Shown here in pieces: positions 46,683-62,174 of a stretch of 64,000 bases of DNA. Made by a program: the position numbers and the translations under genes. Every line of letters starts with the position of its first letter. The first letter of the stretch is position 1. This stretch comes from an uncultured Candidatus Saccharibacteria bacterium (GTDB lineage: Bacteria; Patescibacteriota; Minisyncoccia; Phycocordibacterales; UBA9973), in the NCBI GenBank assembly GCA_964610995.1, contig CAZSWF010000001.1:2813-66812 (forward strand), written 5' to 3'. The notes below the pieces were generated by a model, which saw nothing but the letters and a program-made list of their open reading frames with translations, was not told the origin of the DNA and did not search any database.

Positions 46683-46883
46683 ACAATCTGTAGCAGGAAG
46701 GGAACGAGCCCGACCTTAATTACTGAATAATTTCCTGCGCCCTGCGTAGCTTAGCGAAGCAGGGATACGGAGCCAAAACAATAGCATTTAGAAGGGGTTT
46801 TGGCAAGTGGAGTATATTGACAATTATTTATAATAATGTTATTATGAGAACATAACGAATTTGTACAATTTAAAAAAATAACA

Positions 46884-47279: not shown

Positions 47280-47306
47280 AGCTCTCTAAATAGAGAGCTT
47301 TTTTTA
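47280..47306 (+). terminator. Rho-independent terminator (AGCTCTCT-aaat-AGAGAGCTTTTTTT)
   Basis: Perfect stem plus T-tract. Confidence 0.6.
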
Positions 47307-47332: not shown

Positions 47333-48784
47333 ATGCAAATGTCACACGACAAGCCTATTACTCCGCGCGCTGAGGATTATTCTCAATGGTACCTTGATGT
47401 TATTGCGGCAGCTGACCTGGCAGAAAACTCACCAGTTCGGGGTTGTATGGTTATTAAACCCAACGGATATGCTATCTGGGAAAAGGTTCAGCAAACACTC
47501 GATGAAGAATTCAAAAACAAAGGCGTGCAAAACGCTTATTTTCCGTTATTGATTCCTGAAAAGTTTCTCAAGCGCGAAGCACAGCACGTAGAAGGCTTTG
47601 CACCAGAAGTTGCAGTTGTCACGCACGCAGGTGGTGAGAAACTCGATGAGCCACTCGTGATCCGTCCTACGTCTGAAACGATCATGTATGAAGTATTTTC
47701 AAAATGGGTACGATCATATAGAGATCTGCCGCTCTTGATCAATCAATGGGCAAATGTGGTGCGATGGGAACTTCGTACAAAACCATTTCTCCGAACTACT
47801 GAGTTTCTATGGCAAGAGGGTCACACCGTACATCAGAATGAACAAGAAGCAGATGACTTTGCGCGACAAATGCTCGACGTATACAAAAACTTTTCAAGAG
47901 ACTATATGGCAATCCCTGTTGTTATCGGAGAAAAGACTGAGAGTGAACGATTTGCTGGTGCGCTCAAGACATATTGCTGTGAAGCAATGATGCAAGATGG
48001 CAAGGCATTGCAATATGCAACTTCGCACAATCTCGGAGATAATTTTGCTAGAGCGTTTGAAGTGCAATATCTCGACCAGAACAATACACTACAGTACGGA
48101 TGGCAGACGAGTTGGGGTCTCTCAACACGATCTATCGGTGGATTGATCATGACACATAGTGATGACAAAGGTTTGGTGCTTCCTCCAAAAATGGCTTCAA
48201 TGAAAGTCGTTATTGTTCCGATTTTTAAGGCCGATAGTAAAGAAAAAGTATTGCCGATTGTTTCTATACTCAAGAAACAAATCGAAGAAGCTCTCGGTAT
48301 TCGAACTGTACATGTTGATGATCGAGAAAATATGTCGATAGGAGAAAAGTTTTTCGAATGGGAAAAGCGAGGGATACCACTTCGCATAGAAATTGGTCCA
48401 AAAGATATTGAAAAAGAACAATGCATGGCAGTGCGAAGAGATACCGGAGAGAAAATAGGTATTTCATATCACTCAGAAATATTTGGTGAAGCGGTGAGAG
48501 ATATATTGGATATCATGCAGACCAATCTCTTAGTTACTGCGCAACAACGTTTGGAAGAAAATACTATTACTATAGATTCATGGGATGATTTTGTTTCTGC
48601 TATTGAAGGCGGGAAATTTGTTATGGCGCATTGGGATGGTACTCCAGAAACAGAAAAGAAAATTAAAGAAGAGGTCGGCGCAACTATTCGTTGTATTCCA
48701 TTTGATAACAAGGTCGAATCAGGTGCTTGTATAAAAACAGGTAACCCTTCTACGCAGCGTGTACTTTTCGCGAAGGCATACTAA
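47333..48784 (+). CDS. proS: Prolyl-tRNA synthetase, archaeal/eukaryote-type (no editing insertion)
   Basis: Class II motifs, ~480 aa, C-terminal Zn-binding-like domain; N-terminus resembles ProRS type 3. Confidence 0.88.
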   Translation: MQMSHDKPITPRAEDYSQWYLDVIAAADLAENSPVRGCMVIKPNGYAIWEKVQQTLDEEFKNKGVQNAYFPLLIPEKFLKREAQHVEGFAPEVAVVTHAGGEKLDEPLVIRPTSETIMYEVFSKWVRSYRDLPLLINQWANVVRWELRTKPFLRTTEFLWQEGHTVHQNEQEADDFARQMLDVYKNFSRDYMAIPVVIGEKTESERFAGALKTYCCEAMMQDGKALQYATSHNLGDNFARAFEVQYLDQNNTLQYGWQTSWGLSTRSIGGLIMTHSDDKGLVLPPKMASMKVVIVPIFKADSKEKVLPIVSILKKQIEEALGIRTVHVDDRENMSIGEKFFEWEKRGIPLRIEIGPKDIEKEQCMAVRRDTGEKIGISYHSEIFGEAVRDILDIMQTNLLVTAQQRLEENTITIDSWDDFVSAIEGGKFVMAHWDGTPETEKKIKEEVGATIRCIPFDNKVESGACIKTGNPSTQRVLFAKAY

Positions 48785-48786
48785 GC

Positions 48787-49830
48787 ATGTTTAAATCTCT
48801 CTATCGCAGATTTTCAAATGATATTGGTATCGATCTTGGTACTGCTAACACACTTGTGTATCTCAGTGGGTACGGCATCATCATCAACGAACCATCGATC
48901 GTGGCTGTGAACCAAAAAACAGGACAGATCGTGGCGGTTGGGCATGAAGCCAAGAAAATGTGGGGCAAGACCCCTGCACATATACAAATCATCAGACCAC
49001 TGATCGAAGGGGTTGTTTCAGATTTTGATATGACAGAGGAGATGCTCGCATACTTTATCCGCAAGGCGCAAATGATGAGCAAGAAATTCTTCCGTCCACG
49101 AGTTGTGATCGGTGTACCGAGTGGTATTACCAACGTTGAGATGCGCGCAGTCTACGACGCTGCCATCGATGCGGGTGCACGAGAAGTGTATCTCGTCGAA
49201 GAAGCAATGGCAGCTGCGATAGGTGTGCGTTTACCAGTGCTCGATGCCAAGGCAACATTTGTGATAGATATTGGCGGAGGGACGACCGACATTGCACTTA
49301 TCGCACTCGGTGGTGTCGTACGATCCCTCAATTTGCGGATTGCAGGAGATCATTTCAATGAGCGCGTGATCGAGTATTTGCGAGATGAATTTAAACTACT
49401 GGTGGGAGAACCGACCGCAGAGAGTGTCAAGCTTGCACTTGGTTCTGCGATCGAGACAGAGTATGCCGAGATAGAAGTCCGTGGCCGCGACCTCGTCAGT
49501 GGACTACCACGTGCACTCGTCGTCACCGATGGTGATATACGCGAAGCACTCATGCGACCGATCGGGTTCCTCGTGACTGCGATCAAAGAAGTACTCGAAA
49601 CTGCACCACCAGAAATGATGGCCGATGTGCTCCAGAGCGGGATCGTACTGACTGGAGGTGGCGCGCTTTTGCCAGGACTACCAGCACTATTGGAAAATGA
49701 GTTGTCGTTACCAGTGCATATTGCCCAGGACCCATTGTCGGCAGTAGCGCGTGGGACGGGTATTATTTTAGAAAACTTTGAACAATACGAAAGTGTCATA
49801 ATCCCCCTTGATGAACATGTTGTCATATAG
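48787..49830 (+). CDS. mreB: Rod shape-determining protein MreB
   Basis: GIDLGTANTLVY phosphate-1, actin fold motifs. Confidence 0.95.
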   Translation: MFKSLYRRFSNDIGIDLGTANTLVYLSGYGIIINEPSIVAVNQKTGQIVAVGHEAKKMWGKTPAHIQIIRPLIEGVVSDFDMTEEMLAYFIRKAQMMSKKFFRPRVVIGVPSGITNVEMRAVYDAAIDAGAREVYLVEEAMAAAIGVRLPVLDAKATFVIDIGGGTTDIALIALGGVVRSLNLRIAGDHFNERVIEYLRDEFKLLVGEPTAESVKLALGSAIETEYAEIEVRGRDLVSGLPRALVVTDGDIREALMRPIGFLVTAIKEVLETAPPEMMADVLQSGIVLTGGGALLPGLPALLENELSLPVHIAQDPLSAVARGTGIILENFEQYESVIIPLDEHVVI

Positions 49831-50575
49831 CCGTAGTGCCAAACAGTCACATAAACGCAAACGTCTCATAATGAGCCTTGTTGGTATCATCGGAGGTGTG
49901 TTTCTGGTATGGGGTATGACAAAAGTAGTCGTAAACAATACGATCGCACATAAACCACTCGCATCTGCTGGTACTATTGTCAGCACTCTTTCGTCCAAGC
50001 GTGCACTTGTAGACAAGATCACTGAACTACAAACGACACTCGAGTCATACGATGCAGAGCTCAGTACTGCAGCACTCATGCAAACAGAAAACGCCGAGCT
50101 CAAAGCCGAGCTCAATCGTCTACCGAGTACTCGTGGGACACTTGCACATGTGGTCACACTACCCAACCGTAGTCTCTACGACACCGTCACAGTAGATGCG
50201 GGTGTAGCGCAAGGGATCACCGAAGGACAAATCGCATATGCGTTTGGCAGTATTGCGCTTGGGACGGTGTCATCGGTAGGAGAAGACTATGCGACGGTTA
50301 CACTGTTTAGTGCGCCAGGACGTGAGACTTCCGGTACGGTGGCTGGGAGTAATGTCGCGATCACGATGATCGGCAGAGGTGGAGGTGAGTACGAGGTGCG
50401 CATGCCACGAGACGTAGACTTTGCGGTGGGAGGGCTGATCGCGTATCAGTCGACCGACACCGCAGTGCTTGCAGAGATCGAGCGCATTGCGACCGACCCG
50501 CGTGATCCATTTCAGAAATTGTATGCAAAAACTCCCATCAATTTACAGGCGCTCAAGTGGGTAATAGTACGATAG
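49808..50575 (+). CDS. mreC: Rod shape-determining protein MreC
   Basis: Short basic cytoplasmic N-terminus, TM, coiled coil (ELQTTLESYDAELS), beta domain; overlaps mreB stop. Confidence 0.65.
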   Translation: MMNMLSYSRSAKQSHKRKRLIMSLVGIIGGVFLVWGMTKVVVNNTIAHKPLASAGTIVSTLSSKRALVDKITELQTTLESYDAELSTAALMQTENAELKAELNRLPSTRGTLAHVVTLPNRSLYDTVTVDAGVAQGITEGQIAYAFGSIALGTVSSVGEDYATVTLFSAPGRETSGTVAGSNVAITMIGRGGGEYEVRMPRDVDFAVGGLIAYQSTDTAVLAEIERIATDPRDPFQKLYAKTPINLQALKWVIVR

Positions 50576-50609: not shown

Positions 50610-53600
50610 ATGAAATTTTTTCAAAAACTAATAGTAACAATTTGTTTGGTTTTGACTATCATAGTGTCAGGTATTTTCTTGGCTAGCGCACAAGATCTTA
50701 TTGATTATCCATATTCATTCGGTGACACTGGTGTAGAATGTGGCTTTCAACCTACTAGCTCTCTCACATATGTAGAAAGTGAGAAAAAGCTCTATGGAAT
50801 GACAACCCGAGGTGGAATAAATAACCTAGGGGTGGTATTTGCTTACGATCCCTATGGTGCAACTTGTTCTATCTTACATGAGTTTAATACGCCTGAAGGG
50901 GTACTTCCTACGGGCTCTCTCACATATGTAGAAAGTGAGCAAAAGCTTTACGGAACGACAACTGCAGGAGGGGCAAGCGATCAAGGGACAATATTTTCAT
51001 TACGCGTAGATGGAACTGAATATGTAACAGTAAAAGATTTTGCTGGTGCGGAAGGATCCAATCCAAAAACCTCTCTCACATATGTAGAAAGTGAGCAAAA
51101 GCTCTACGGAACGACATCTACAGGGGGAACAAATGCAACAGGGGTAATATTTAGTTATACTTTGAGTGATGGGACTTATACAGTCTTGCATAATTTTGAT
51201 AGTGGTATAGATATTATAGGGTCACTCACGTATCTCGAAAACGAAAACAGTTTGTACGGTATGGCAACCAAGGGTGGCCCGGATGATAATGGTGTTATTT
51301 TTAGATTCAATCTTACGCAAAGTATTTATGAAACGGCATATTCTTTTGGAAATAAGGTCGAAGGAACTGCCCCATTTGGAGCGTTGACAGCGGTAGGTAA
51401 AACCTTGTATGGAAGAACTAGGTCTGAAGGAGAATTTAAATTTGGTGTTATTTTTTCTATACGAGGTGAACAGTACACAGTGTTACACAATTTTGAAACC
51501 GCAAATGATGCTGATTTCAATAGCGCACTACTTTTTGATGGAGTACGTAAAGTCTACGGTACTACATCAGTAGGTGGCGCCAATAATGCCGGGGTACTTT
51601 TTTCTTATGATTTAGCAGACAATACGTATTCCGTTAGAGATGTATTGTCTACCGGAATACGTCCCGTTGGGTCCTTAGCTATGCTATCACAGAGTCTACT
51701 ATACGGTATGACGTCTGAGGGGGGAGTAAAGGCTACTGGAACAATATTTAATTTTACTTTTTTAGATATATATCCAGATCCTTTTTCTTTCGATTCTGTA
51801 GAAAATATTCCTAAAAAAACAACCATAAAATCAAATGCCATAACCGTAGACGGTCTCAGTCCGGGTGTATCTGCGGCTATTACTCTTAGTGAGTGCTACG
51901 CAGGAGACTGTGGTTATTTGGTTAATGGAGAAATAGATGTACCGACCGTTTCTAATGGAGATAGTGTTCAAATAACCTTAACTGCGCTTGATTGTGATGA
52001 ATCATATTCCCCAGTAATAACTATCGAAGGAGTACAAGCATCGTTTGATGTAAAAACAGAAGTTTGCAGTAGCGGAGGTGGTGATCCAGACACCGAGGCG
52101 CCAACTGTTTCGTTTACTATGCCGAGTTCCGGATCAAACCTCACTGTTTCTGTAGCGTTTGACGCTCTTGATAATACTGGCGCTACCGGATATATGCTCA
52201 CAGAGTCAGCGACTCTTCCAGAAGCTTCCGATGAGCGATGGCAGGCAAGCGCTCCAGCTTCCTATACATTTTCTACGTATGGTTCGTACACACTCTATGC
52301 GTGGGCCAAAGACGCTGCAGGCAATGTTTCTGCAGAAACTTCGCAAACCATTACACTGACCGATCCCACACCTCCACCACCAGATCCCGAACCCGAACCC
52401 GAACCCGAACCAGAGCCGGAGCCTGATGACGAAGATGCTGGCGGAGGCGGAGGTAGGAGTTCTAGTGGCTCAAATATTGCAGGTGCCGGACTCGTCGGTG
52501 TACAACCATCGACACCTTCTGCACCACAGGCGGTAGTAGAAGTAGTGCCAGTAGTACCAGCTCCAGTAGTAGATACTCCGAGACCTCGTCCAGAACCTAC
52601 TATCGTACTGGACTCACCGATCAAGCAAGCAATCAAACGCAACTTCACTCCTGCGCAAGTAGCAATCATCGAAGTATCTATCAAGGCTATTATTGCGACA
52701 GTCACCGCAATCGGTGGAGCGATTGTTCTCGCGTCTGTGTTGTTCTTGAACCCACTTGCACGACCTGAGTTTATACTCATACCATTGCGACTATGGGCAC
52801 TGCTGCTGGCTGCGCTCGGTATTCGCAAAAAGCCCGTGCCGTGGGGTACGGTGTATGATGCGATCACCAAGCAGCCAGTCGACCCTGTACGAGTGTCACT
52901 CATCGATATAGATGGAAATGTAGTCGAAACATCGATCACTGACTCATCAGGTCGATATGGATTTATTGCGAAACCTGGTGTTTACAAAATGGTACTCTCC
53001 AAGACCAACTACCTCTTTCCATCACACGTGATCGCACAGAAAAATATGCGTGATGAATTGTACGAAAAGCCGTACTTTGGTGACTACTTGCCGTATGATC
53101 CTGCGATTCCGATCGAAAAGAACATCCCGATCGACCCGCTCGACTTTGACACAGCAGCATTTGCGAAAAACAACGGCGATCTATCGGTGCACTATTCTCG
53201 ACGAGAAGAAATCGCTGAACGACTTTTCAATACGCTTTTCTTTACGACATTTGCAGTGGTGGTGGCGAGTCTCATCATCTATCCACAAATGTACAACGTG
53301 ATCATTTTCCTTCTCTATATTGCAGCGTTTATCTTTCGTAGACAGGCCAAGCGCGCGAAACATATGGGTCGCATCTACGACCTCTATGGCAAGCCGCTCG
53401 CTCATGTAACGATGAAAGTGCACTCTGCAGTAGACAATAGTCTGATAAAAACAATAACTACAACTCGTGCTGGTCGCTACTACCTCCACCTACCGCAAGG
53501 CCTGTACTATGTACGCGTCGAACGTACTGGTCCTGACGGTCTCTCTGTGCCGGTTTACTCATCACCCGAGATTCTCATGGTCCGTCACGGCATACTCAAC

Positions 53601-53627
53601 AAAGTGTTTAGTATTGCGTATTCGTAA
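50610..53627 (+). CDS. Large surface/membrane protein: signal peptide, 7 Gloeo_Verruco-like repeats (probable beta-propeller), Ig-like domains, (PE)n/Pro-rich stalk, 4 TM helices interleaved with two CarboxypepD_reg-like domains
   Basis: Seven ~50-aa repeats each containing LYG(T/M)Txx GGxxxxG(V/T)IF; DTEAPTVSF...AKDAAGNVS Ig-like domain; PEPEPEPEPEPEPD linker; GTVYDAITKQPVDPVRVSLIDIDGNVVETSITDSSGRYGF and GRIYDLYGKPLAHVTMKVHS...AGRYYLHLPQGLYYV. Confidence 0.8.
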   Translation: MKFFQKLIVTICLVLTIIVSGIFLASAQDLIDYPYSFGDTGVECGFQPTSSLTYVESEKKLYGMTTRGGINNLGVVFAYDPYGATCSILHEFNTPEGVLPTGSLTYVESEQKLYGTTTAGGASDQGTIFSLRVDGTEYVTVKDFAGAEGSNPKTSLTYVESEQKLYGTTSTGGTNATGVIFSYTLSDGTYTVLHNFDSGIDIIGSLTYLENENSLYGMATKGGPDDNGVIFRFNLTQSIYETAYSFGNKVEGTAPFGALTAVGKTLYGRTRSEGEFKFGVIFSIRGEQYTVLHNFETANDADFNSALLFDGVRKVYGTTSVGGANNAGVLFSYDLADNTYSVRDVLSTGIRPVGSLAMLSQSLLYGMTSEGGVKATGTIFNFTFLDIYPDPFSFDSVENIPKKTTIKSNAITVDGLSPGVSAAITLSECYAGDCGYLVNGEIDVPTVSNGDSVQITLTALDCDESYSPVITIEGVQASFDVKTEVCSSGGGDPDTEAPTVSFTMPSSGSNLTVSVAFDALDNTGATGYMLTESATLPEASDERWQASAPASYTFSTYGSYTLYAWAKDAAGNVSAETSQTITLTDPTPPPPDPEPEPEPEPEPEPDDEDAGGGGGRSSSGSNIAGAGLVGVQPSTPSAPQAVVEVVPVVPAPVVDTPRPRPEPTIVLDSPIKQAIKRNFTPAQVAIIEVSIKAIIATVTAIGGAIVLASVLFLNPLARPEFILIPLRLWALLLAALGIRKKPVPWGTVYDAITKQPVDPVRVSLIDIDGNVVETSITDSSGRYGFIAKPGVYKMVLSKTNYLFPSHVIAQKNMRDELYEKPYFGDYLPYDPAIPIEKNIPIDPLDFDTAAFAKNNGDLSVHYSRREEIAERLFNTLFFTTFAVVVASLIIYPQMYNVIIFLLYIAAFIFRRQAKRAKHMGRIYDLYGKPLAHVTMKVHSAVDNSLIKTITTTRAGRYYLHLPQGLYYVRVERTGPDGLSVPVYSSPEILMVRHGILNKVFSIAYS

Positions 53628-53648: not shown

Positions 53649-54830
53649 GTGAAATTTACGATACAGAAAAAACTAGACGGCACACTTGCGCGTGCGGGGG
53701 AGCTGGTGACTCCACATGGTGTCATACAGACGCCGGCATTTGTGACGGTGGGGACCAAGTCGACGGTCAAGTCTCTGACGACTGAGCAGATACGCAGCCT
53801 CGGCGCACAAGTCGTACTTGCCAACACATACCATCTGTATCTCCAGCCAGGCACTGATGTGGTGGAGAAGGCGGGAGGATTTGGGAAGTTTATGGACTGG
53901 CACGGACCTACCATGACCGACAGTGGCGGATTTCAGGCATTTTCACTCGGAGCAGCATTTGGTAACAACGTGTCCAAGGTTGCAACAGGTGACGCTGTCT
54001 CAGACATATCTGCGACCAAAGGGCAGCTTGCGATAGTGACTGATGAAGGTGTGACGTTCAAGAGTCATCTCAACGGTGACAAACACCTCTTTACTCCCGA
54101 GAGTTCGATGCTCGCACAATGGAAGATAGGCGCGGACATGATATTTGCATTTGATGAATGCACGAGCCCGAGTGCGCCGTACGAGTATCAAGAGAAGTCT
54201 CTTGCGCGTACGTATGCATGGGCCAAGCGGTGTATCGATGCACATGAAGCACTCGATGTGGAAAAGAAACAAGCACTCTTTGGTGTCGTACAAGGTGGAC
54301 GCTTCCAAGATTTGCGAGAGAAGGCCGCACGAGATCTCGGCGCACTGCCGTTTGACGGCTACGGTATTGGCGGGTCATTTACCAAAGACGACATCGGGAC
54401 CGCCGTAGGGTGGGTCAATGCAATATTGCCCGAAGACAAACCGCGACACCTACTCGGCATCGGAGAGCCTATCGACCTCTTTGAAGGAGTCCAAGCTGGG
54501 TGTGACCTCTTTGACTGCGTGCTCCCGACACGCATCGGGCGACACGGCACACTCTTTACACACGACGGCAAAATCCATATCAAAAATGCACAATACGTCG
54601 AAGACTTCGGTCCGCTTGAGCAGGGTTGTACGTGCTACACGTGTACACATCACACTCGCGCGTACATTGCGCACCTTTTCCGTGCAGATGAAATGACTGC
54701 CGGTACACTTGCAAGTATTCACAATATTCATTTCCTCTTGCGATTGGTAGAAAAGATCCGAGAGACTATCCTCGACGGCACATTTTTTGAGTACAAAAAG
54801 GCATTTGTGGAGCGGTATTATAAGAAATAA
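53649..54830 (+). CDS. tgt: Queuine tRNA-ribosyltransferase
   Basis: Catalytic Asp context, Zn site CTCYTCTHHTRAYIAHL, 393 aa. Confidence 0.95.
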   Translation: MKFTIQKKLDGTLARAGELVTPHGVIQTPAFVTVGTKSTVKSLTTEQIRSLGAQVVLANTYHLYLQPGTDVVEKAGGFGKFMDWHGPTMTDSGGFQAFSLGAAFGNNVSKVATGDAVSDISATKGQLAIVTDEGVTFKSHLNGDKHLFTPESSMLAQWKIGADMIFAFDECTSPSAPYEYQEKSLARTYAWAKRCIDAHEALDVEKKQALFGVVQGGRFQDLREKAARDLGALPFDGYGIGGSFTKDDIGTAVGWVNAILPEDKPRHLLGIGEPIDLFEGVQAGCDLFDCVLPTRIGRHGTLFTHDGKIHIKNAQYVEDFGPLEQGCTCYTCTHHTRAYIAHLFRADEMTAGTLASIHNIHFLLRLVEKIRETILDGTFFEYKKAFVERYYKK

Positions 54831-59792: not shown

Positions 59793-60140
59793 ATGGAAAA
59801 CGCCAGCAGGTTTACTGCTCTCGTAGAGCGTATCAAAAAATTCTCAGCCGATCGTGATTGGTCTCAATTTCATGACCCAAAGAACCTTGCAATATCTTTG
59901 AATCTAGAAGCTTCAGAAGTGCTTGAGTTGTATCAGTGGACAAAAGACAATCAGCTTAAACCTGAGCGTGCCGGTAAAATAAATGACGAGCTTGCAGATG
60001 TCTTTTATTGGCTTGTTCTTCTTTCAAACTACTACAATATAGATCTTGTCGAAGCACTTGATAAAAAAATGGATCAAAATGAGCAAAAATATCCAGTAGA
60101 GAAAGCGAAAGGAAAATCAGATAAATATAATGAACTGTAA
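59793..60140 (+). CDS. MazG-like all-alpha NTP pyrophosphohydrolase domain protein
   Basis: EASEVLE (ExxE) and ELADVFYWL Mg-binding helices, DQNEQKYP C-terminal region; stop is 3 nt before next ATG. Confidence 0.7.
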   Translation: MENASRFTALVERIKKFSADRDWSQFHDPKNLAISLNLEASEVLELYQWTKDNQLKPERAGKINDELADVFYWLVLLSNYYNIDLVEALDKKMDQNEQKYPVEKAKGKSDKYNEL

Positions 60141-60143
60141 TGT

Positions 60144-62174
60144 ATGTCAAAAATACAATCGTTTAAATTTAATAGAGATAATTTTCAAAACATAAAAGCC
60201 TACCGTTTTGGGAAAAATTGGCCAGTTGTATATGTTGCAGAAAATGGAAAGGAGGCGTATATAGGTGAAACAGTAAATGTATTTCATAGAAGTCGTCAGC
60301 ACTATGAAAATCCTGAACGACAAAAACTAAATAAAATACATATTGTAACTGATGAAGAATTTAATAAATCAGCTGCTTTAGATATTGAGTCATGGCTTAT
60401 TCAATATATGTCGGCCGATCAAATATTTACTCTTCAAAATGGTAATAGTGGTCTTCAAAATCATAACTACTATGATCGTCCAAAATATAAAGCAAAATTT
60501 GAACTAATCTGGGAAAAGTTTAGAGAAATGGGTATTGCAAAAAATACCTTAGAAGATTTAAAAAATACAGACCTTTTTAAATATTCTCCCTATAAATCAT
60601 TAACTGAAGATCAGTTTATTGTTGCTCGGCAAATTTTTGAAGATTTAAAAAATAATCAAGCTCAAACGTATATTATAAATGGAAAACCAGGGACAGGTAA
60701 AACAATTCTTGCAACCTATCTTTTTAAATATTTAAAAGAACAAGATGAAACAAAACACCTAAAGATGGCCCTCGTAGTACCAATGACTTCTCTTCGAAAA
60801 ACTATTGGAAAAGTTTTTAGTAAAATAAAAGGATTGAGTAGTGGAATGGTAATTGGGCCAAATAAAGTAGCGCGAGGAGCTTATGATCTTGTAATCGTCG
60901 ATGAAGCACATCGTTTACAAAGGAGAAAAAATATTATGGGCATGGGTGCTTATGACAATATAAACAGATTTCTTAACTTGTCTGCAGAGTCGACGAATCT
61001 TGATTGGATAATGAAAACCTCAAAACATCAAATATTTTTTTATGATGAAAATCAAAGTATCAAACCTTCTGATGTTAGAAAGGAAGATTTTAATAATCTA
61101 AATGCAAAACATTATAAACTTACAACACAAATGCGCATAGGAGCTGGTGATGAGTATATTCATTTTATTGAGGATTTATTTGATCTTAAGGTTCCAGATA
61201 AAACAAGTTTTGAAAATTATGATTTTAAAGTCTATGAAAGCGTTGAAGGCATGGTTTCAGATATAAAACAAAAAGATAAAAAATATGGACTTTCTCGAGT
61301 AGTAGCGGGATATGCATGGCCTTGGCATACAAGAAATGGTGTTCAGCCTTATGATATTGAAATTGGAGGATATAAAGGCGTGTGGAATTCTACCGCGACA
61401 GATTGGGTAAATGCACCCAATGCCATAAACGAAGTTGGATGTATTCATACAGTCCAAGGGTATGACTTGAATTATGTAGGAGTAATTATTGGCCCCGAAT
61501 TTGGATACGACACAAAAAATAAAAAATTTTTTGTAGATAAAAAGAAATATCTCGATAGGAATGGTCGTGCCGGGGTACATGATCCGGTTGAGTTAGAACA
61601 ATATATTAAAAATATTTATAAAACAATTCTTACTCGGGGAATCCGAGGAACTTTTGTGTATATATGTGATGATAGTTTAAGATCTTATTTTAATAGTATT
61701 TTAAATAAAGGCGATAACTTAGAAAAAAGTTCAATTATTAAAACTTCGATCGAATCAATTTATTTTAATAAAGAAACAGTTAAATTACCTTTATTTGAGT
61801 CTGTTGGGTGTGGTGAGTTTATGATCGCAAATTCTCTCCCAGAAGATTTTTTGAAAGTAGATAAAAAATATGTTTCAACTGGATCAAAATATTTCGTACT
61901 TCGTGTTTCTGGAGATTCTATGAATCAGGTAGGTATAAACGATGGTGATTTAGTATTATGTCGTAAAGAATATAATCCACCGCAAGGAAAAAATGTAGTA
62001 GCCTTGGTAGGTGATGATGCTACTATCAAAGAGTATTGGAAAGAAGGAAAAACAGTAATCTTGAAACCAAAATCAAGTAATCCAAAACATCAAGTTATGG
62101 AATTTACAGAAGATGAACAGGTTTTTATTCAAGGTGTTGTTCTCCGAGTTTTAAAAGATGGTGATTATGAATAG
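60144..62174 (+). CDS. Three-domain fusion: N-terminal GIY-YIG nuclease, central DUF2075/SF1-helicase-like P-loop ATPase, C-terminal LexA/UmuD-like S24 peptidase domain
   Basis: VVYVAENGKEAYIGETVNVFHRSRQHY ... ESWL ... QNGN (GIY-YIG); GKPGTGKT Walker A, LVIVDEAHRL Walker B, IHTVQGYDLNYVGVIIG (SF1 motif VI-like); LPLFESVGCGEF linker with Cys-Gly, GDSM Ser nucleophile, ATIKEY Lys (S24). Very low G+C. Confidence 0.8.
   Translation: MSKIQSFKFNRDNFQNIKAYRFGKNWPVVYVAENGKEAYIGETVNVFHRSRQHYENPERQKLNKIHIVTDEEFNKSAALDIESWLIQYMSADQIFTLQNGNSGLQNHNYYDRPKYKAKFELIWEKFREMGIAKNTLEDLKNTDLFKYSPYKSLTEDQFIVARQIFEDLKNNQAQTYIINGKPGTGKTILATYLFKYLKEQDETKHLKMALVVPMTSLRKTIGKVFSKIKGLSSGMVIGPNKVARGAYDLVIVDEAHRLQRRKNIMGMGAYDNINRFLNLSAESTNLDWIMKTSKHQIFFYDENQSIKPSDVRKEDFNNLNAKHYKLTTQMRIGAGDEYIHFIEDLFDLKVPDKTSFENYDFKVYESVEGMVSDIKQKDKKYGLSRVVAGYAWPWHTRNGVQPYDIEIGGYKGVWNSTATDWVNAPNAINEVGCIHTVQGYDLNYVGVIIGPEFGYDTKNKKFFVDKKKYLDRNGRAGVHDPVELEQYIKNIYKTILTRGIRGTFVYICDDSLRSYFNSILNKGDNLEKSSIIKTSIESIYFNKETVKLPLFESVGCGEFMIANSLPEDFLKVDKKYVSTGSKYFVLRVSGDSMNQVGINDGDLVLCRKEYNPPQGKNVVALVGDDATIKEYWKEGKTVILKPKSSNPKHQVMEFTEDEQVFIQGVVLRVLKDGDYE

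What the first reader, a model, noticed from the sequence alone, without database searches (positions are those of the whole stretch)
50610..53627. 1005-aa surface protein: seven tandem Gloeo_Verruco-like repeats (likely beta-propeller) joined by a (PE)n stalk to a 4-TM module carrying two carboxypeptidase-regulatory-like domains
Seven ~50-aa repeats share the core LYG(T/M)T-x2-GG-x4-G(V/T)IF, resembling the Gloeo_Verruco/'GloVer' repeat class; seven blades suggest a closed propeller. After Ig-like domains and a PEPEPEPEPEPEPD / PVVPAPVV stalk, the C-terminus alternates TM hairpins with two ~80-aa transthyretin-like (CarboxypepD_reg-like) domains. I have not seen this topology described. It could be an adhesin or host/episymbiont-contact protein, relevant if the organism is an epibiont.
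Basis: partly seen in the sequence, partly recalled or inferred. Interest (0 to 1): 0.65.

Follow-up and report, generated by a model that had tools for sequence, protein, structure and literature searches.

The report
Propeller surface protein with inward-facing membrane module

Summary
ORF 50610-53627 (+) encodes 1005 aa with these parts:
- a signal peptide;
- seven GloVer repeats (TIGR03803, E 9.7e-63);
- two Ig-like domains;
- a (PE)n/Pro-rich linker;
- four hydrophobic helices interleaved with two CarboxypepD_reg domains.

AlphaFold2 with Foldseek supports a beta-propeller.

The C-terminal ~330 aa is not unique to this protein. A profile search finds 2362 cluster representatives at E<=1e-30, and a genome scan finds 528 loci; the 80 listed are nearly all labelled Patescibacteria/Paceibacteria. 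In the members examined the module follows unrelated exported domains (fn3, NHL, RCC1, VWA, FG-GAP and others). It is an internal duplication of [helical hairpin + transthyretin-like domain]. Neither Pfam nor NCBIfam models the whole module, and five full-text searches found no description.

One family member continues from the second beta domain, with no membrane helix between, into a histidine kinase, and a response-regulator gene follows it. K/R flank counts and amino-acid composition also place both beta domains in the cytoplasm.

My best reading is a receptor-like binding protein whose variable head evolves fast (~40% identity between orthologues) on a conserved transmembrane module (76-80%). 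The ligand and the role of the cytoplasmic domains are unknown.

The parts
50610..53627 (+). Complete ORF, 1005 aa plus stop codon
   Evidence: ORF list. Full-length syntenic orthologues are P0018 (997 aa) and P0022 (1008 aa).
50610..50690 (+). Signal peptide (aa 1-27: MKFFQK n-region, hydrophobic core 7-25, ASA|Q cleavage-type motif)
   Evidence: Kyte-Doolittle peak of 2.88 at residues 7-25. 130 of 140 family members that start with M have an N-terminal hydrophobic segment. Cleavage is inferred from the AXA motif.
50694..51785 (+). Seven GloVer repeats (aa 29-392), modelled as a beta-propeller
   Evidence: TIGR03803 with 7 stretches, E 9.7e-63. Repeat cores at residues 61-364. In the AF2 model the repeat region has blocks mostly >90 (range 72-98) and about four strands per repeat. 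Foldseek PDB hits are dominated by propellers: 4a2m, sortilin, S9 peptidase, 1l0q, integrin alpha-M.
51789..52373 (+). Two beta-sandwich (Ig-like) domains, aa ~394-484 and ~492-588
   Evidence: All-beta segments in the AF2 model. Weak Pfam/NCBIfam hits to Big_13, Y_Y_Y and OmpL47-type at 536-583.
52374..52616 (+). Low-complexity stalk/linker (aa 589-669): PPPPD(PE)6PDDED, a Gly/Ser run, PVVPAPVV, RPRPEP. Contains the perfect microsatellite (CCCGAA)4.3 at 52386-52411.
   Evidence: Sequence positions. Tandem Repeats Finder, 100% matches. Four of five complete orthologues carry PE/PD/PA-rich runs of different length.
52650..52745 (+). Hydrophobic helix 1 (aa 681-712, core 694-712). In the family it is G/A/S/T-rich and has no charged residue in its core.
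   Evidence: AF2 helix 21-52 of the module model. Kyte-Doolittle 2.38. Family statistics.
52752..52823 (+). Hydrophobic helix 2 (aa 715-738), carrying the family motif E-x2-LIP-x-RLW...LG and followed by the basic cluster RKK
   Evidence: AF2 helix 55-75. Arg is 91% conserved; 152 of 154 members have a basic residue inside this helix and 99% a charged core residue. 149 of 154 have >=3 basic residues just before the WG motif.
52824..53204 (+). Domain 1 (aa 739-865): PWGTVYD motif, a transthyretin-like beta sandwich, and the conserved extension NIPxDPxxFD..FAK
   Evidence: Pfam CarboxypepD_reg and SdrD_B. Invariant columns. Foldseek hits to transthyretin/CnaB/SdrD-B folds.
53208..53360 (+). Helical hairpin 3-4 (aa 867-891 and 894-917) with a very short connecting turn (family mean loop 5.1 aa) and basic flanks on both sides
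   Evidence: AF2 helices 204-230 and 234-257, with 10-residue pLDDT blocks of 62-92, mostly 86-92. Family K+R counts: 3.19 before, 0.70 in the loop, 3.15 after.
53361..53624 (+). Domain 2 (aa 918-1005): second transthyretin-like beta sandwich, a paralogue of domain 1
   Evidence: Pfam SpaA at 927-978 and the second CarboxypepD_reg stretch. hhalign of half 1 against half 2: probability 99.2%, E 1.4e-19. AF2 10-residue pLDDT blocks 74-92, mostly 88-92.
47333..50575 (+). Upstream context: proS (47333-48784), mreB (48787-49830), mreC (49808-50575). The gap to this ORF is 34 nt.
   Evidence: ORFs. MreC Pfam hit. The same order occurs in loci L002, L003/L009, L011, L012 and L017. No terminator-like hairpin lies in either gap flanking this ORF.
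53649..54830 (+). Downstream context: tgt (queuine tRNA-ribosyltransferase), 21 nt after the stop codon
   Evidence: ORF. A TGT Pfam hit sits at the same position in the orthologous loci.

Best explanation
The gene encodes a receptor-like cell-surface binding protein of a Patescibacteria (Paceibacteria-type) bacterium.

**Shown**
- A Sec-type signal peptide precedes a head of seven GloVer repeats modelled as a beta-propeller, two Ig-like domains, and an acidic (PE)n/Pro-rich stalk.
- The last ~330 aa form a conserved module that arose by duplication of [helical hairpin + transthyretin-like domain]. The module follows many unrelated exported domains across this group of bacteria.

**Inferred, about 0.8**
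- Both transthyretin-like domains face the cytoplasm.
- The chain therefore crosses once within the helix-1/helix-2 region. Which of the two helices spans is unresolved.
- Helices 3 and 4 form a hairpin whose short turn faces outward.

**Inferred, weaker**
- The propeller binds an external ligand, such as a host or partner cell surface or a polymer.
- The conserved module fixes the protein in the membrane and presents a common cytoplasmic 'handle' to an unknown partner.
- In one lineage that handle is wired directly to a histidine kinase.
- The head evolves quickly while the module is conserved, as expected for an exposed binding surface mounted on a constrained transmembrane and intracellular part.
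For: **Architecture**
- establish the ORF, repeats, domains and hydrophobic segments.
- Propeller: AF2 pLDDT 82, pTM 0.70, and Foldseek hits dominated by propellers.

**The module is generic**
- The profile search finds 6303 hits at E<=1e-3 and 2362 at E<=1e-30. In nearly all of the top 150 the module ends at or within a few residues of the C-terminus, in proteins of 386-3040 aa.
- The genome scan finds 528 loci in species-representative genomes. The 80 listed are nearly all labelled Patescibacteria, Paceibacterota, Nomurabacteria or the like.
- The heads of 40 members include fn3, NHL, RCC1, VWA, FG-GAP, Sortilin-Vps10, Big_2 and DUF285.

**Duplication**
- hhalign probability 99.2%, E 1.4e-19, covering both helices and the beta domain.

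**Cytoplasmic orientation**
1. P0196/P0400/P0403 (943 aa, Ca. Staskawiczbacteria, OGZ69805.1) consists of signal peptide, Cys-rich head, module, a 50-aa hydrophilic linker, HisKA and HATPase_c. It is seen on 10 contigs, with loci from three different samples, and is followed by a Response_reg gene. It is colinear with the window module from helix 2 to the end, 38% identity, E 9e-50.
2. Over 154 members, mean K+R counts are 3.90 after helix 2, 3.19 before helix 3 and 3.15 after helix 4, against 0.06 and 0.70 in the two short loops.
3. Composition:
   - heads: K+R 3.4%, S+T+G+N 41.7%, Cys 2.2%;
   - domain 1: 11.9%, 23.9%, 0.05%;
   - domain 2: 13.9%, 25.1%, 0.9%;
   - cytoplasmic reference proteins of the window: 11.9%, 21.2%, 0.8%.
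4. P0016 starts at helix 2 with no signal peptide, overlapping the stop of folD.

**Rates**
- Identity to orthologues is 40-41% for the propeller and 76-80% for the module.
Against: - Four hydrophobic helices are modelled, and helices 1 and 3 are homologous. An exported head with four true spans would put the beta domains outside. How one helix avoids spanning is unexplained.
- The kinase fusion comes from a single 90%-identity cluster. A search for further fusions found none among the 120 proteins listed.
- From general knowledge, CarboxypepD_reg/CnaB-like domains are usually extracytoplasmic.
- The module model has pTM 0.37, so it says nothing about domain arrangement.
- No ligand, partner or expression data exist. 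'Binding protein' rests on analogy with propeller heads and on the diversity of heads in the family.
- The window protein itself has no kinase and no adjacent regulator gene.
Confidence: 0.6

Rival explanations
1. All four helices span, and both transthyretin-like domains sit on the outer face of the membrane. There they would form a pedestal or a cell-wall or lipid-binding collar at the foot of the stalk, making the module a purely external anchor.
For: - Four helices of TM-like length and hydrophobicity.
- Each half of the module is a homologous hairpin plus domain unit, so parity with an exported head gives external domains.
- Foldseek neighbours of the domains include surface-protein parts such as SdrD B domains, SlaB and pilins.
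Against: - The kinase fusion has no helix between domain 2 and HisKA.
- On this topology about 12 K+R per protein would lie on 'outside' flanks against about 0.8 'inside'.
- The domains have cytoplasm-like composition and almost no Cys, unlike the heads in the same chains.
Confidence: 0.15
2. The module is an outside-in signalling device. Ligand binding by the head would be passed through the helices to the twin cytoplasmic domains, which would act on a response regulator, a kinase or another effector. The window protein would then be a sensor rather than a mere adhesin.
For: - The module is fused to HisKA/HATPase_c and has a cognate Response_reg gene.
- Response-regulator genes lie within 7-235 nt of the module gene's 3' end in seven loci (L005, L039, L055, L058, L064, L081, L086), and two lie directly upstream in L065; L079 has one 2.2 kb away, giving nine of 86 loci with one nearby.
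- The best Foldseek hit of the head is the propeller plus Y_Y_Y sensor of a Bacteroides hybrid two-component system (4a2m, E 2.7e-10), and there is a weak Y_Y_Y Pfam hit at 550-583.
Against: - Most family members, this one included, have no kinase or regulator nearby.
- Five of the adjacent regulators are near-identical orthologues in convergent orientation, so there are few independent events.
- Many other propellers match the head equally well.
Confidence: 0.2
3. The module is a substrate or partner of a small intramembrane site-2 protease. This would allow regulated shedding of the head or release of the cytoplasmic part.
For: - A ~210-aa Peptidase_M50 gene with HEVSH and LDG motifs lies immediately upstream on the same strand, median gap 31 nt, in 44 of 86 loci.
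- At least 7 loci keep it although rpsL is not downstream.
- Conserved helix breakers sit at the helix-1/helix-2 junction: Pro in 73%, NP in 51%, and P-x-R/K in 129 of 154.
Against: - In L090-L092 the M50 gene sits directly before rpsL with the module gene 3 kb away, so the linkage may simply be old synteny around the str operon.
- The window contains no small M50 gene.
- There is no cleavage evidence of any kind.
Confidence: 0.08
4. The protein is an accessory of the cell-elongation machinery, because it sits where mreD would be, in a proS-mreB-mreC-X-tgt operon.
For: - The same gene order is conserved in all close relatives.
- The gaps are 34 and 21 nt, with no terminator-like hairpin in either gap.
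- Two distant family members also lie a few kb downstream of proS-mreB.
Against: - About 70 of the 80 genome loci have no mreB or mreC within 8 kb.
- The protein has no similarity to MreD.
- The head belongs to a family of secreted proteins that is mostly Bacteroidota T9SS cargo.
Confidence: 0.07

Closest known systems
GloVer 'choice-of-anchor' tandem-repeat proteins (NCBIfam TIGR03803), mostly Bacteroidota T9SS cargo
   Same: Both have a signal peptide followed by tandem ~50-aa repeats with the LYG-T-x2-GG...G-x-IF core. The HMM score is far above the cut-off. The best full-length hits outside CPR are such proteins, at 30-40% identity over the repeat region.
   Different: - Those proteins end in a T9SS sorting domain (PF18962) or another short sorting signal. 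This one ends in a 330-aa helical and beta-sandwich module.
- The head has exactly seven repeats, whereas the Bacteroidota relatives listed are 800-1100 aa and the repeat consensus of their alignment runs to about 13 units.
- No solved structure of the repeat was found by sequence search of the PDB.
Periplasmic sensor domains of Bacteroides hybrid two-component systems (BT4663, PDB 4a2m; BT4673, 3va6)
   Same: Both have an extracytoplasmic beta-propeller followed by a Y_Y_Y-type beta sandwich and then the membrane. 4a2m is the top Foldseek hit (E 2.7e-10, TMq 0.42). One module-family member is a true sensor kinase.
   Different: - There is no detectable sequence homology.
- Those sensors have two propellers, a single TM helix and cytoplasmic kinase/receiver/AraC domains.
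- The window protein has no kinase or receiver domain.
Gram-positive fibrillar adhesins of the MSCRAMM type (SdrD, ClfB)
   Same: The logic is the same: binding head, Ig-like stalk domains, an acidic dipeptide-repeat spacer (SD there, PE here) and a C-terminal anchor. There are weak hits to SdrD_B and ClfB, and Foldseek hits SdrD B domains.
   Different: - Neither Pfam nor NCBIfam reports an LPXTG-type anchor, and the chain ends in a folded domain rather than a sorting signal.
- Here the CnaB/transthyretin-like domains come after the membrane helices and are inferred to be intracellular, not part of the external stalk.
Hairpin-type substrates of site-2 proteases (SREBP class; recalled from memory, used only as a lead)
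   Same: Both have a helical hairpin with a very short outer loop, both flanks cytoplasmic, and helix-breaking Asn-Pro or Pro in the helix region. An M50 gene is adjacent in half of the family loci.
   Different: No cleavage is shown. The linkage may be synteny. The window has no such neighbour.

Membership tests
TIGR03803 GloVer repeat family | Tandem ~50-aa repeats that match the family HMM above its curated cut-off | tested here: met
   207.7 bits against a cut-off of 44, with 7 stretches, E 9.7e-63. Orthologues have 4-7 stretches.
TIGR03803 GloVer repeat family | Secreted protein with an N-terminal signal peptide and one of several alternative C-terminal anchors ('choice of anchor') | tested here: met
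   Hydrophobic N-terminus with an ASA|Q motif. The anchor here is of a different kind from the T9SS tails of most hits.
Beta-propeller fold | Four-stranded blades arranged in a closed ring | tested here: inconclusive
   The AF2 model has about four strands per repeat, with pLDDT blocks mostly >90 over the repeat region and pTM 0.70. Foldseek hits are dominated by propellers. I could not inspect coordinates, so ring closure and a blade count of seven are inferred from the repeat number.
Pfam PF13620 CarboxypepD_reg (transthyretin-like clan) | HMM match above the gathering score, and a seven-stranded beta-sandwich fold | tested here: met
   44.2 bits against 32.3, with 2 stretches. Foldseek hits transthyretin, carboxypeptidase D/M/N C-domains and CnaB. 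The profile hits the carboxypeptidase M chain at E 1.4e-6.
   Kyte-Doolittle values 1.94-2.38. AF2 helices of 21-32 residues.
   The kinase fusion places domain 2 in the cytoplasm. K/R flanks and composition agree. This is computational evidence only.
T9SS type A sorting domain (TIGR04183 / PF18962) | HMM match above the cut-off at the extreme C-terminus | tested here: not met
   13.6 bits against a cut-off of 23 in the window protein, and the match lies in domain 1, not at the C-terminus. Orthologues score 21.9-27.4 bits, which I read as generic beta-sandwich similarity.
Two-component sensor histidine kinase | HisKA and HATPase_c domains | tested here: not met
   Absent from the window protein. 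Present only in homologue P0196/P0400.
LPXTG/sortase-anchored adhesin | LPXTG-type motif, then a hydrophobic helix and a basic tail at the C-terminus | tested here: not met
   No Pfam or NCBIfam hit to an LPXTG-type anchor. The chain ends in a folded domain (…NKVFSIAYS), not in a helix plus basic tail.
Site-2-protease substrate | Intramembrane cleavage by an M50 protease | not testable with these tools
   Only gene adjacency elsewhere in the family, and counter-examples exist.

The most novel reading that the evidence does not exclude
The C-terminal module is a lineage-wide transmembrane coupling device of Paceibacteria-type CPR bacteria. Hundreds of different exported heads, which bind hosts, prey or polymers, would all be mounted on the same three-crossing helical core. 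Its twin cytoplasmic transthyretin-like domains would report or exploit engagement of the head, through two-component regulators (as in the kinase-fused member), through an intramembrane protease, or, in this orthologue group, through the MreB/MreC machinery it is co-transcribed with. That would make it a previously unrecognised class of bacterial surface receptor with cytoplasmic beta-sandwich output domains.
Probability: 0.25. Interest if true: 0.8.

Novelty: new variant of a known kind. Interest (0 to 1): 0.6.

Why it matters
- CPR/Patescibacteria are thought to live attached to other cells, and related Paceibacteria-type lineages have been seen attached to methanogens (PMC10936435). How they hold on and sense contact is largely unknown.
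- This gene shows that one conserved, unannotated ~330-aa module carries a very large and diverse repertoire of their surface proteins.
- The data argue that the module's two beta domains face the cytoplasm. These proteins would then be transmembrane links rather than passive anchors.
- That gives a concrete handle for several tasks:
  - cataloguing the surface-protein repertoire of these bacteria (search for the module);
  - testing outside-in signalling;
  - finding the cytoplasmic partner.
- It also corrects a natural mis-reading: counting hydrophobic helices would give the wrong topology here.

Tried and rejected
1. **Rarity of the module.** The word-indexed homology search found only 16 relatives, which suggested a rare family. 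The exhaustive profile search overturned this with 2362 hits at E<=1e-30.
2. **Family-wide link to mreB/mreC.** tblastn over 88 loci shows the adjacency only in the close orthologues plus two distant loci. I rejected it as a general property and kept it as a minor rival.
3. **Site-2 protease partnership.** The adjacency is striking, 44 of 86 loci. It is weakened by L090-L092, where the M50 gene stays next to rpsL without the module gene between them.
4. **Domain 1 as a T9SS sorting domain.** Scores are below or near threshold, and the match is not C-terminal.
5. **More kinase fusions.** None turned up among the 120 listed hits. Support comes from independent assemblies of one cluster.
7. **Literature.** Five full-text searches found no description of the module or of GloVer structure.
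8. **DNA-level repeats.** Apart from the (CCCGAA)n run and two short, low-scoring 9-nt repeats, no DNA tandem repeat was found. The protein repeats have therefore diverged at the DNA level.
9. **Exact sequence.** It is not in the 15-billion-protein collection.


Full report
**1. Observation**

The ORF is at 50610..53627 on the + strand and encodes 1005 aa.
- NCBIfam TIGR03803 (Gloeo_Verruco, 'choice-of-anchor tandem repeat GloVer') matches seven times, E 9.7e-63, 207.7 bits against a cut-off of 44.
- The [LV]YG cores lie at residues 61, 113, 165, 215, 266, 315 and 364.
- Pfam CarboxypepD_reg matches twice, 44.2 bits against 32.3. The best stretch is 746-801, and the second domain also hits SpaA/prealbumin at 927-978.
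- Hydropathy peaks lie at 7-25, 694-712, 720-738, 872-890 and about 893-909.
- The N-terminus (MKFFQK, a hydrophobic core, ASA|Q) looks like a Sec signal peptide.
- The (PE)n run is at 593-606 and is encoded by a perfect (CCCGAA)4.3 microsatellite at 52386-52411.

**2. The head**

I modelled residues 29-600 with a 66-sequence alignment.
- The model has mean pLDDT 82 and pTM 0.70. Blocks are mostly >90 (range 72-98) over the repeat region, with about four strands per repeat. Two further all-beta domains follow.
- Foldseek hits against the PDB are dominated by beta-propellers. The best is the propeller plus Y_Y_Y sensor domain of the Bacteroides hybrid two-component system BT4663 (4a2m, E 2.7e-10). 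Sortilin, S9 peptidases, an archaeal YVTN propeller with PKD domain, and integrin alpha-M follow.
- A sequence search of the PDB finds no solved GloVer-repeat protein.
- The propeller reading is supported. Ring closure with exactly seven blades is inferred from the repeat count, because I could not inspect coordinates.
- Most relatives of the head are 800-1100-aa Bacteroidota proteins that end in a T9SS sorting domain.

**3. Orthologues and context**

- Full-length orthologues include P0018 (997 aa) and P0022 (1008 aa). They lie in the same order, proS-mreB-mreC-X-tgt-uvrB.
- Identity to these orthologues is 40-41% over the propeller and 38-44% over the Ig-like part, but 76-80% over the C-terminal module. 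For comparison, MreB is 85-97% and MreC 60-79% identical.
- The head therefore evolves much faster than the tail.
- The gaps to mreC and tgt are 34 and 21 nt, and no terminator-like hairpin lies in either gap. Co-transcription is likely.
- Record titles of the closest genomes name Paceibacterota, Minisyncoccia or Patescibacteria.

**4. The C-terminal module is a large family**

- A word-indexed search found only 16 relatives.
- A profile of their alignment, searched exhaustively against 1.84 billion cluster representatives, found 6303 hits at E<=1e-3 and 2362 at E<=1e-30.
- In nearly all of the best 150 the module ends at or within a few residues of the C-terminus, in proteins of 386-3040 aa.
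- A scan of species-representative genomes found 528 loci. The 80 listed are nearly all labelled as Patescibacteria-group genomes (Nomurabacteria, Paceibacterota, Taylorbacteria, Staskawiczbacteria, RAAC4_OD1_1).
- 130 of 140 members that start with M have an N-terminal hydrophobic segment.
- The heads of 40 members include fn3, NHL, RCC1-like propellers, VWA, FG-GAP, Sortilin-Vps10, Big_2 and DUF285.
- The commonest head carries repeated 'GWINF' motifs.
- Pfam and NCBIfam recognise only the two beta domains. The PDB has no match to the whole module. Five literature searches found nothing.

**5. Internal anatomy of the module**

- Helix 1, helix 2 and domain 1 align with helix 3, helix 4 and domain 2 at hhalign probability 99.2%, E 1.4e-19 over 125 columns. 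The module is a tandem duplication of a [helical hairpin + transthyretin-like domain] unit.
- The family consensus around the first pair is ...LFxNPxSxxExxLIPxRLWxLLLxALGLKKRxRPWGTVYDSV.
  - The Arg inside helix 2 is 91% conserved.
  - 149 of 154 members have at least three basic residues just before the invariant WG.
- Helix 1 is G/A/S/T-rich (58%) and has no charged residue in its core in 84% of members. Helix 2 carries a charged core residue in 99%.
- AF2 models four helices and two beta sandwiches at mean pLDDT 72.5. With pTM 0.37, their mutual arrangement is not informative.

**6.

Four lines of evidence agree.
- **(a) Kinase fusion.**
  - A 90%-identity cluster from Ca. Staskawiczbacteria (P0196, P0400 = OGZ69805.1, P0403; all 943 aa) has this order: signal peptide, GWINF and Cys-rich head, the full module, a 50-aa hydrophilic linker, HisKA (728-783) and HATPase_c (832-942).
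  - The gene was found on 10 contigs, with loci from three different samples (one JGI, two ENA). It is followed 64 nt downstream by a Response_reg gene.
  - Kinase catalytic domains need cytoplasmic ATP and no helix intervenes, so domain 2 is cytoplasmic there. Through the tight helix-3/helix-4 hairpin, so is domain 1.
  - This protein is colinear with the window module from helix 2 to the end, 38% identity, E 9e-50.
- **(b) Basic flanks.** Over 154 members the mean K+R per 15-residue flank is 3.90 after helix 2, 3.19 before helix 3 and 3.15 after helix 4. The two short loops have 0.06 and 0.70. By the positive-inside rule the domains are inside.
- **(c) Composition.**

| Region | K+R | S+T+G+N | Cys |
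|---|---|---|---|
| Heads | 3.4% | 41.7% | 2.2% |
| Domain 1 | 11.9% | 23.9% | 0.05% |
| Domain 2 | 13.9% | 25.1% | 0.9% |
| Cytoplasmic proteins of this window | 11.9% | 21.2% | 0.8% |

- **(d) A truncated member.** P0016 begins at helix 2 with no signal peptide, and its start overlaps the stop of folD.

An exported head with cytoplasmic domains needs an odd number of crossings before domain 1. So one of helices 1 and 2 does not span, and which one is unresolved. I put about 0.8 on the cytoplasmic orientation. The parity problem and the usual extracellular habitat of such domains are the counter-arguments.

**7. Neighbourhoods across the family**

- Clustering all ORFs of 86 loci shows a ~210-aa Peptidase_M50 gene (HEVSH and LDG motifs; Pfam E 4.9e-18). 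It lies immediately upstream on the same strand, median gap 31 nt, in 44 loci. rpsL-rpsG-fusA lies directly downstream in 40 loci.
- In L090-L092 the M50 gene sits directly before rpsL without the module gene between them. The pairing may therefore be old synteny.
- Response-regulator genes lie within 7-235 nt of the module gene's 3' end in seven loci, and two lie directly upstream in L065. L079 has one 2.2 kb away, which gives nine loci in all. Five of the nine are close orthologues of each other.
- Genes for secreted Peptidase_S74 (tail-fibre-like) proteins are neighbours in 27 loci.
- mreB or mreC lies within 8 kb only in the window's orthologue group and two distant loci.
- The window itself has one module copy and no small M50 or rpsL.

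**8. Interpretation**

- Shown:
  - an exported propeller, Ig-like domains and stalk as the head;
  - a conserved, duplicated C-terminal module shared by a very diverse set of exported heads in this lineage;
  - a head that evolves much faster than the module.
- Inferred with good support: the module's beta domains are cytoplasmic.
- Inferred by analogy: the head binds an external ligand, and the module both anchors the protein and offers a common intracellular handle. One lineage uses that handle as the input to a histidine kinase.
- The role of the cytoplasmic domains in this particular protein is unknown. Candidates are signalling, a protease partner and the co-transcribed MreB/MreC machinery.

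**9. Novelty**

The head is a new member of a known family. The module appears undescribed and has an unusual inferred topology, but it belongs to the general category of C-terminal anchoring or transducing regions of modular surface proteins. I therefore rate the whole as a new variant of a known kind, with interest 0.6.

Noticed in passing
window 52386-52411: A perfect in-frame hexanucleotide microsatellite, (CCCGAA)4.3, encodes the (PE)n stalk. Four of five complete orthologues carry PE/PD/PA-rich runs of different length, so the stalk length may vary by slippage.
   Followed up: partly
window 60144-62174 (region 60001-62000 has 31% GC, against about 47% elsewhere): A 676-aa ORF fuses a Schlafen-group-3-type helicase (E 4.4e-68) to a Peptidase_S24 (LexA-like) domain. 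It sits in a low-GC island, and a gene with the same domains is present in the related locus L002. It may be a defence or SOS-linked gene.
   Followed up: partly
window 47333-48784 compared with L002 4944-6188 and L003 4954-6198: The prolyl-tRNA synthetase at the same syntenic position is 483 aa here and 88% identical in L017. In L002 and L003 it is a 414-aa protein only ~25% identical. This looks like in-place replacement by a different ProS type among close relatives.
   Followed up: no
44 of 86 family loci, e.g. L087 6468-7100: A small (~210 aa) Peptidase_M50 / site-2-protease-like gene lies immediately upstream of the module gene (median gap 31 nt), usually with rpsL-rpsG-fusA directly downstream. 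In L090-L092 it sits directly before rpsL without the module gene between them.
   Followed up: partly
L089-L092 (e.g. L090 7001-9832 and 9896-10264): A Ca. Staskawiczbacteria protein (OGZ69805.1) fuses the whole module to HisKA+HATPase_c and is followed by a response-regulator gene. This is a sensor kinase built on the module.
   Followed up: yes
L001 1-7997; L006 8600-11185; L027 4609-6879; 27 loci in all: Genes for large secreted Gly-rich proteins with a Peptidase_S74 (endosialidase-chaperone, tail-fibre-like) domain lie next to module genes. In L001 the neighbour is longer than 2913 aa and ends 4 nt before the module gene.
   Followed up: no
Domain 1 of orthologues (e.g. L012 protein residues 855-905; P0022 residues 755-804): Domain 1 gives near-threshold hits to the T9SS type A sorting-domain model TIGR04183 (up to 27.4 bits against a cut-off of 23). 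The window protein scores only 13.6 bits. This is probably generic beta-sandwich similarity, but it is curious because Bacteroidota GloVer proteins end in that domain.
   Followed up: partly
L090 44-1415: A bAvd gene and a reverse-transcriptase (RVT_1) gene sit next to tgt, which looks like a diversity-generating retroelement, 5.6 kb upstream of the kinase-fused module gene.
   Followed up: no
window 46817-46845 and 47280-47299: The best promoter-like site of the region (11 of 12 matches, with an extended TG) is followed by a strong terminator-like hairpin (8 bp stem, T7) just upstream of proS. No Rfam family matched there. It could be a leader or attenuator for the proS-mreBC-X-tgt unit, or the terminator of the preceding gene.
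   Followed up: no
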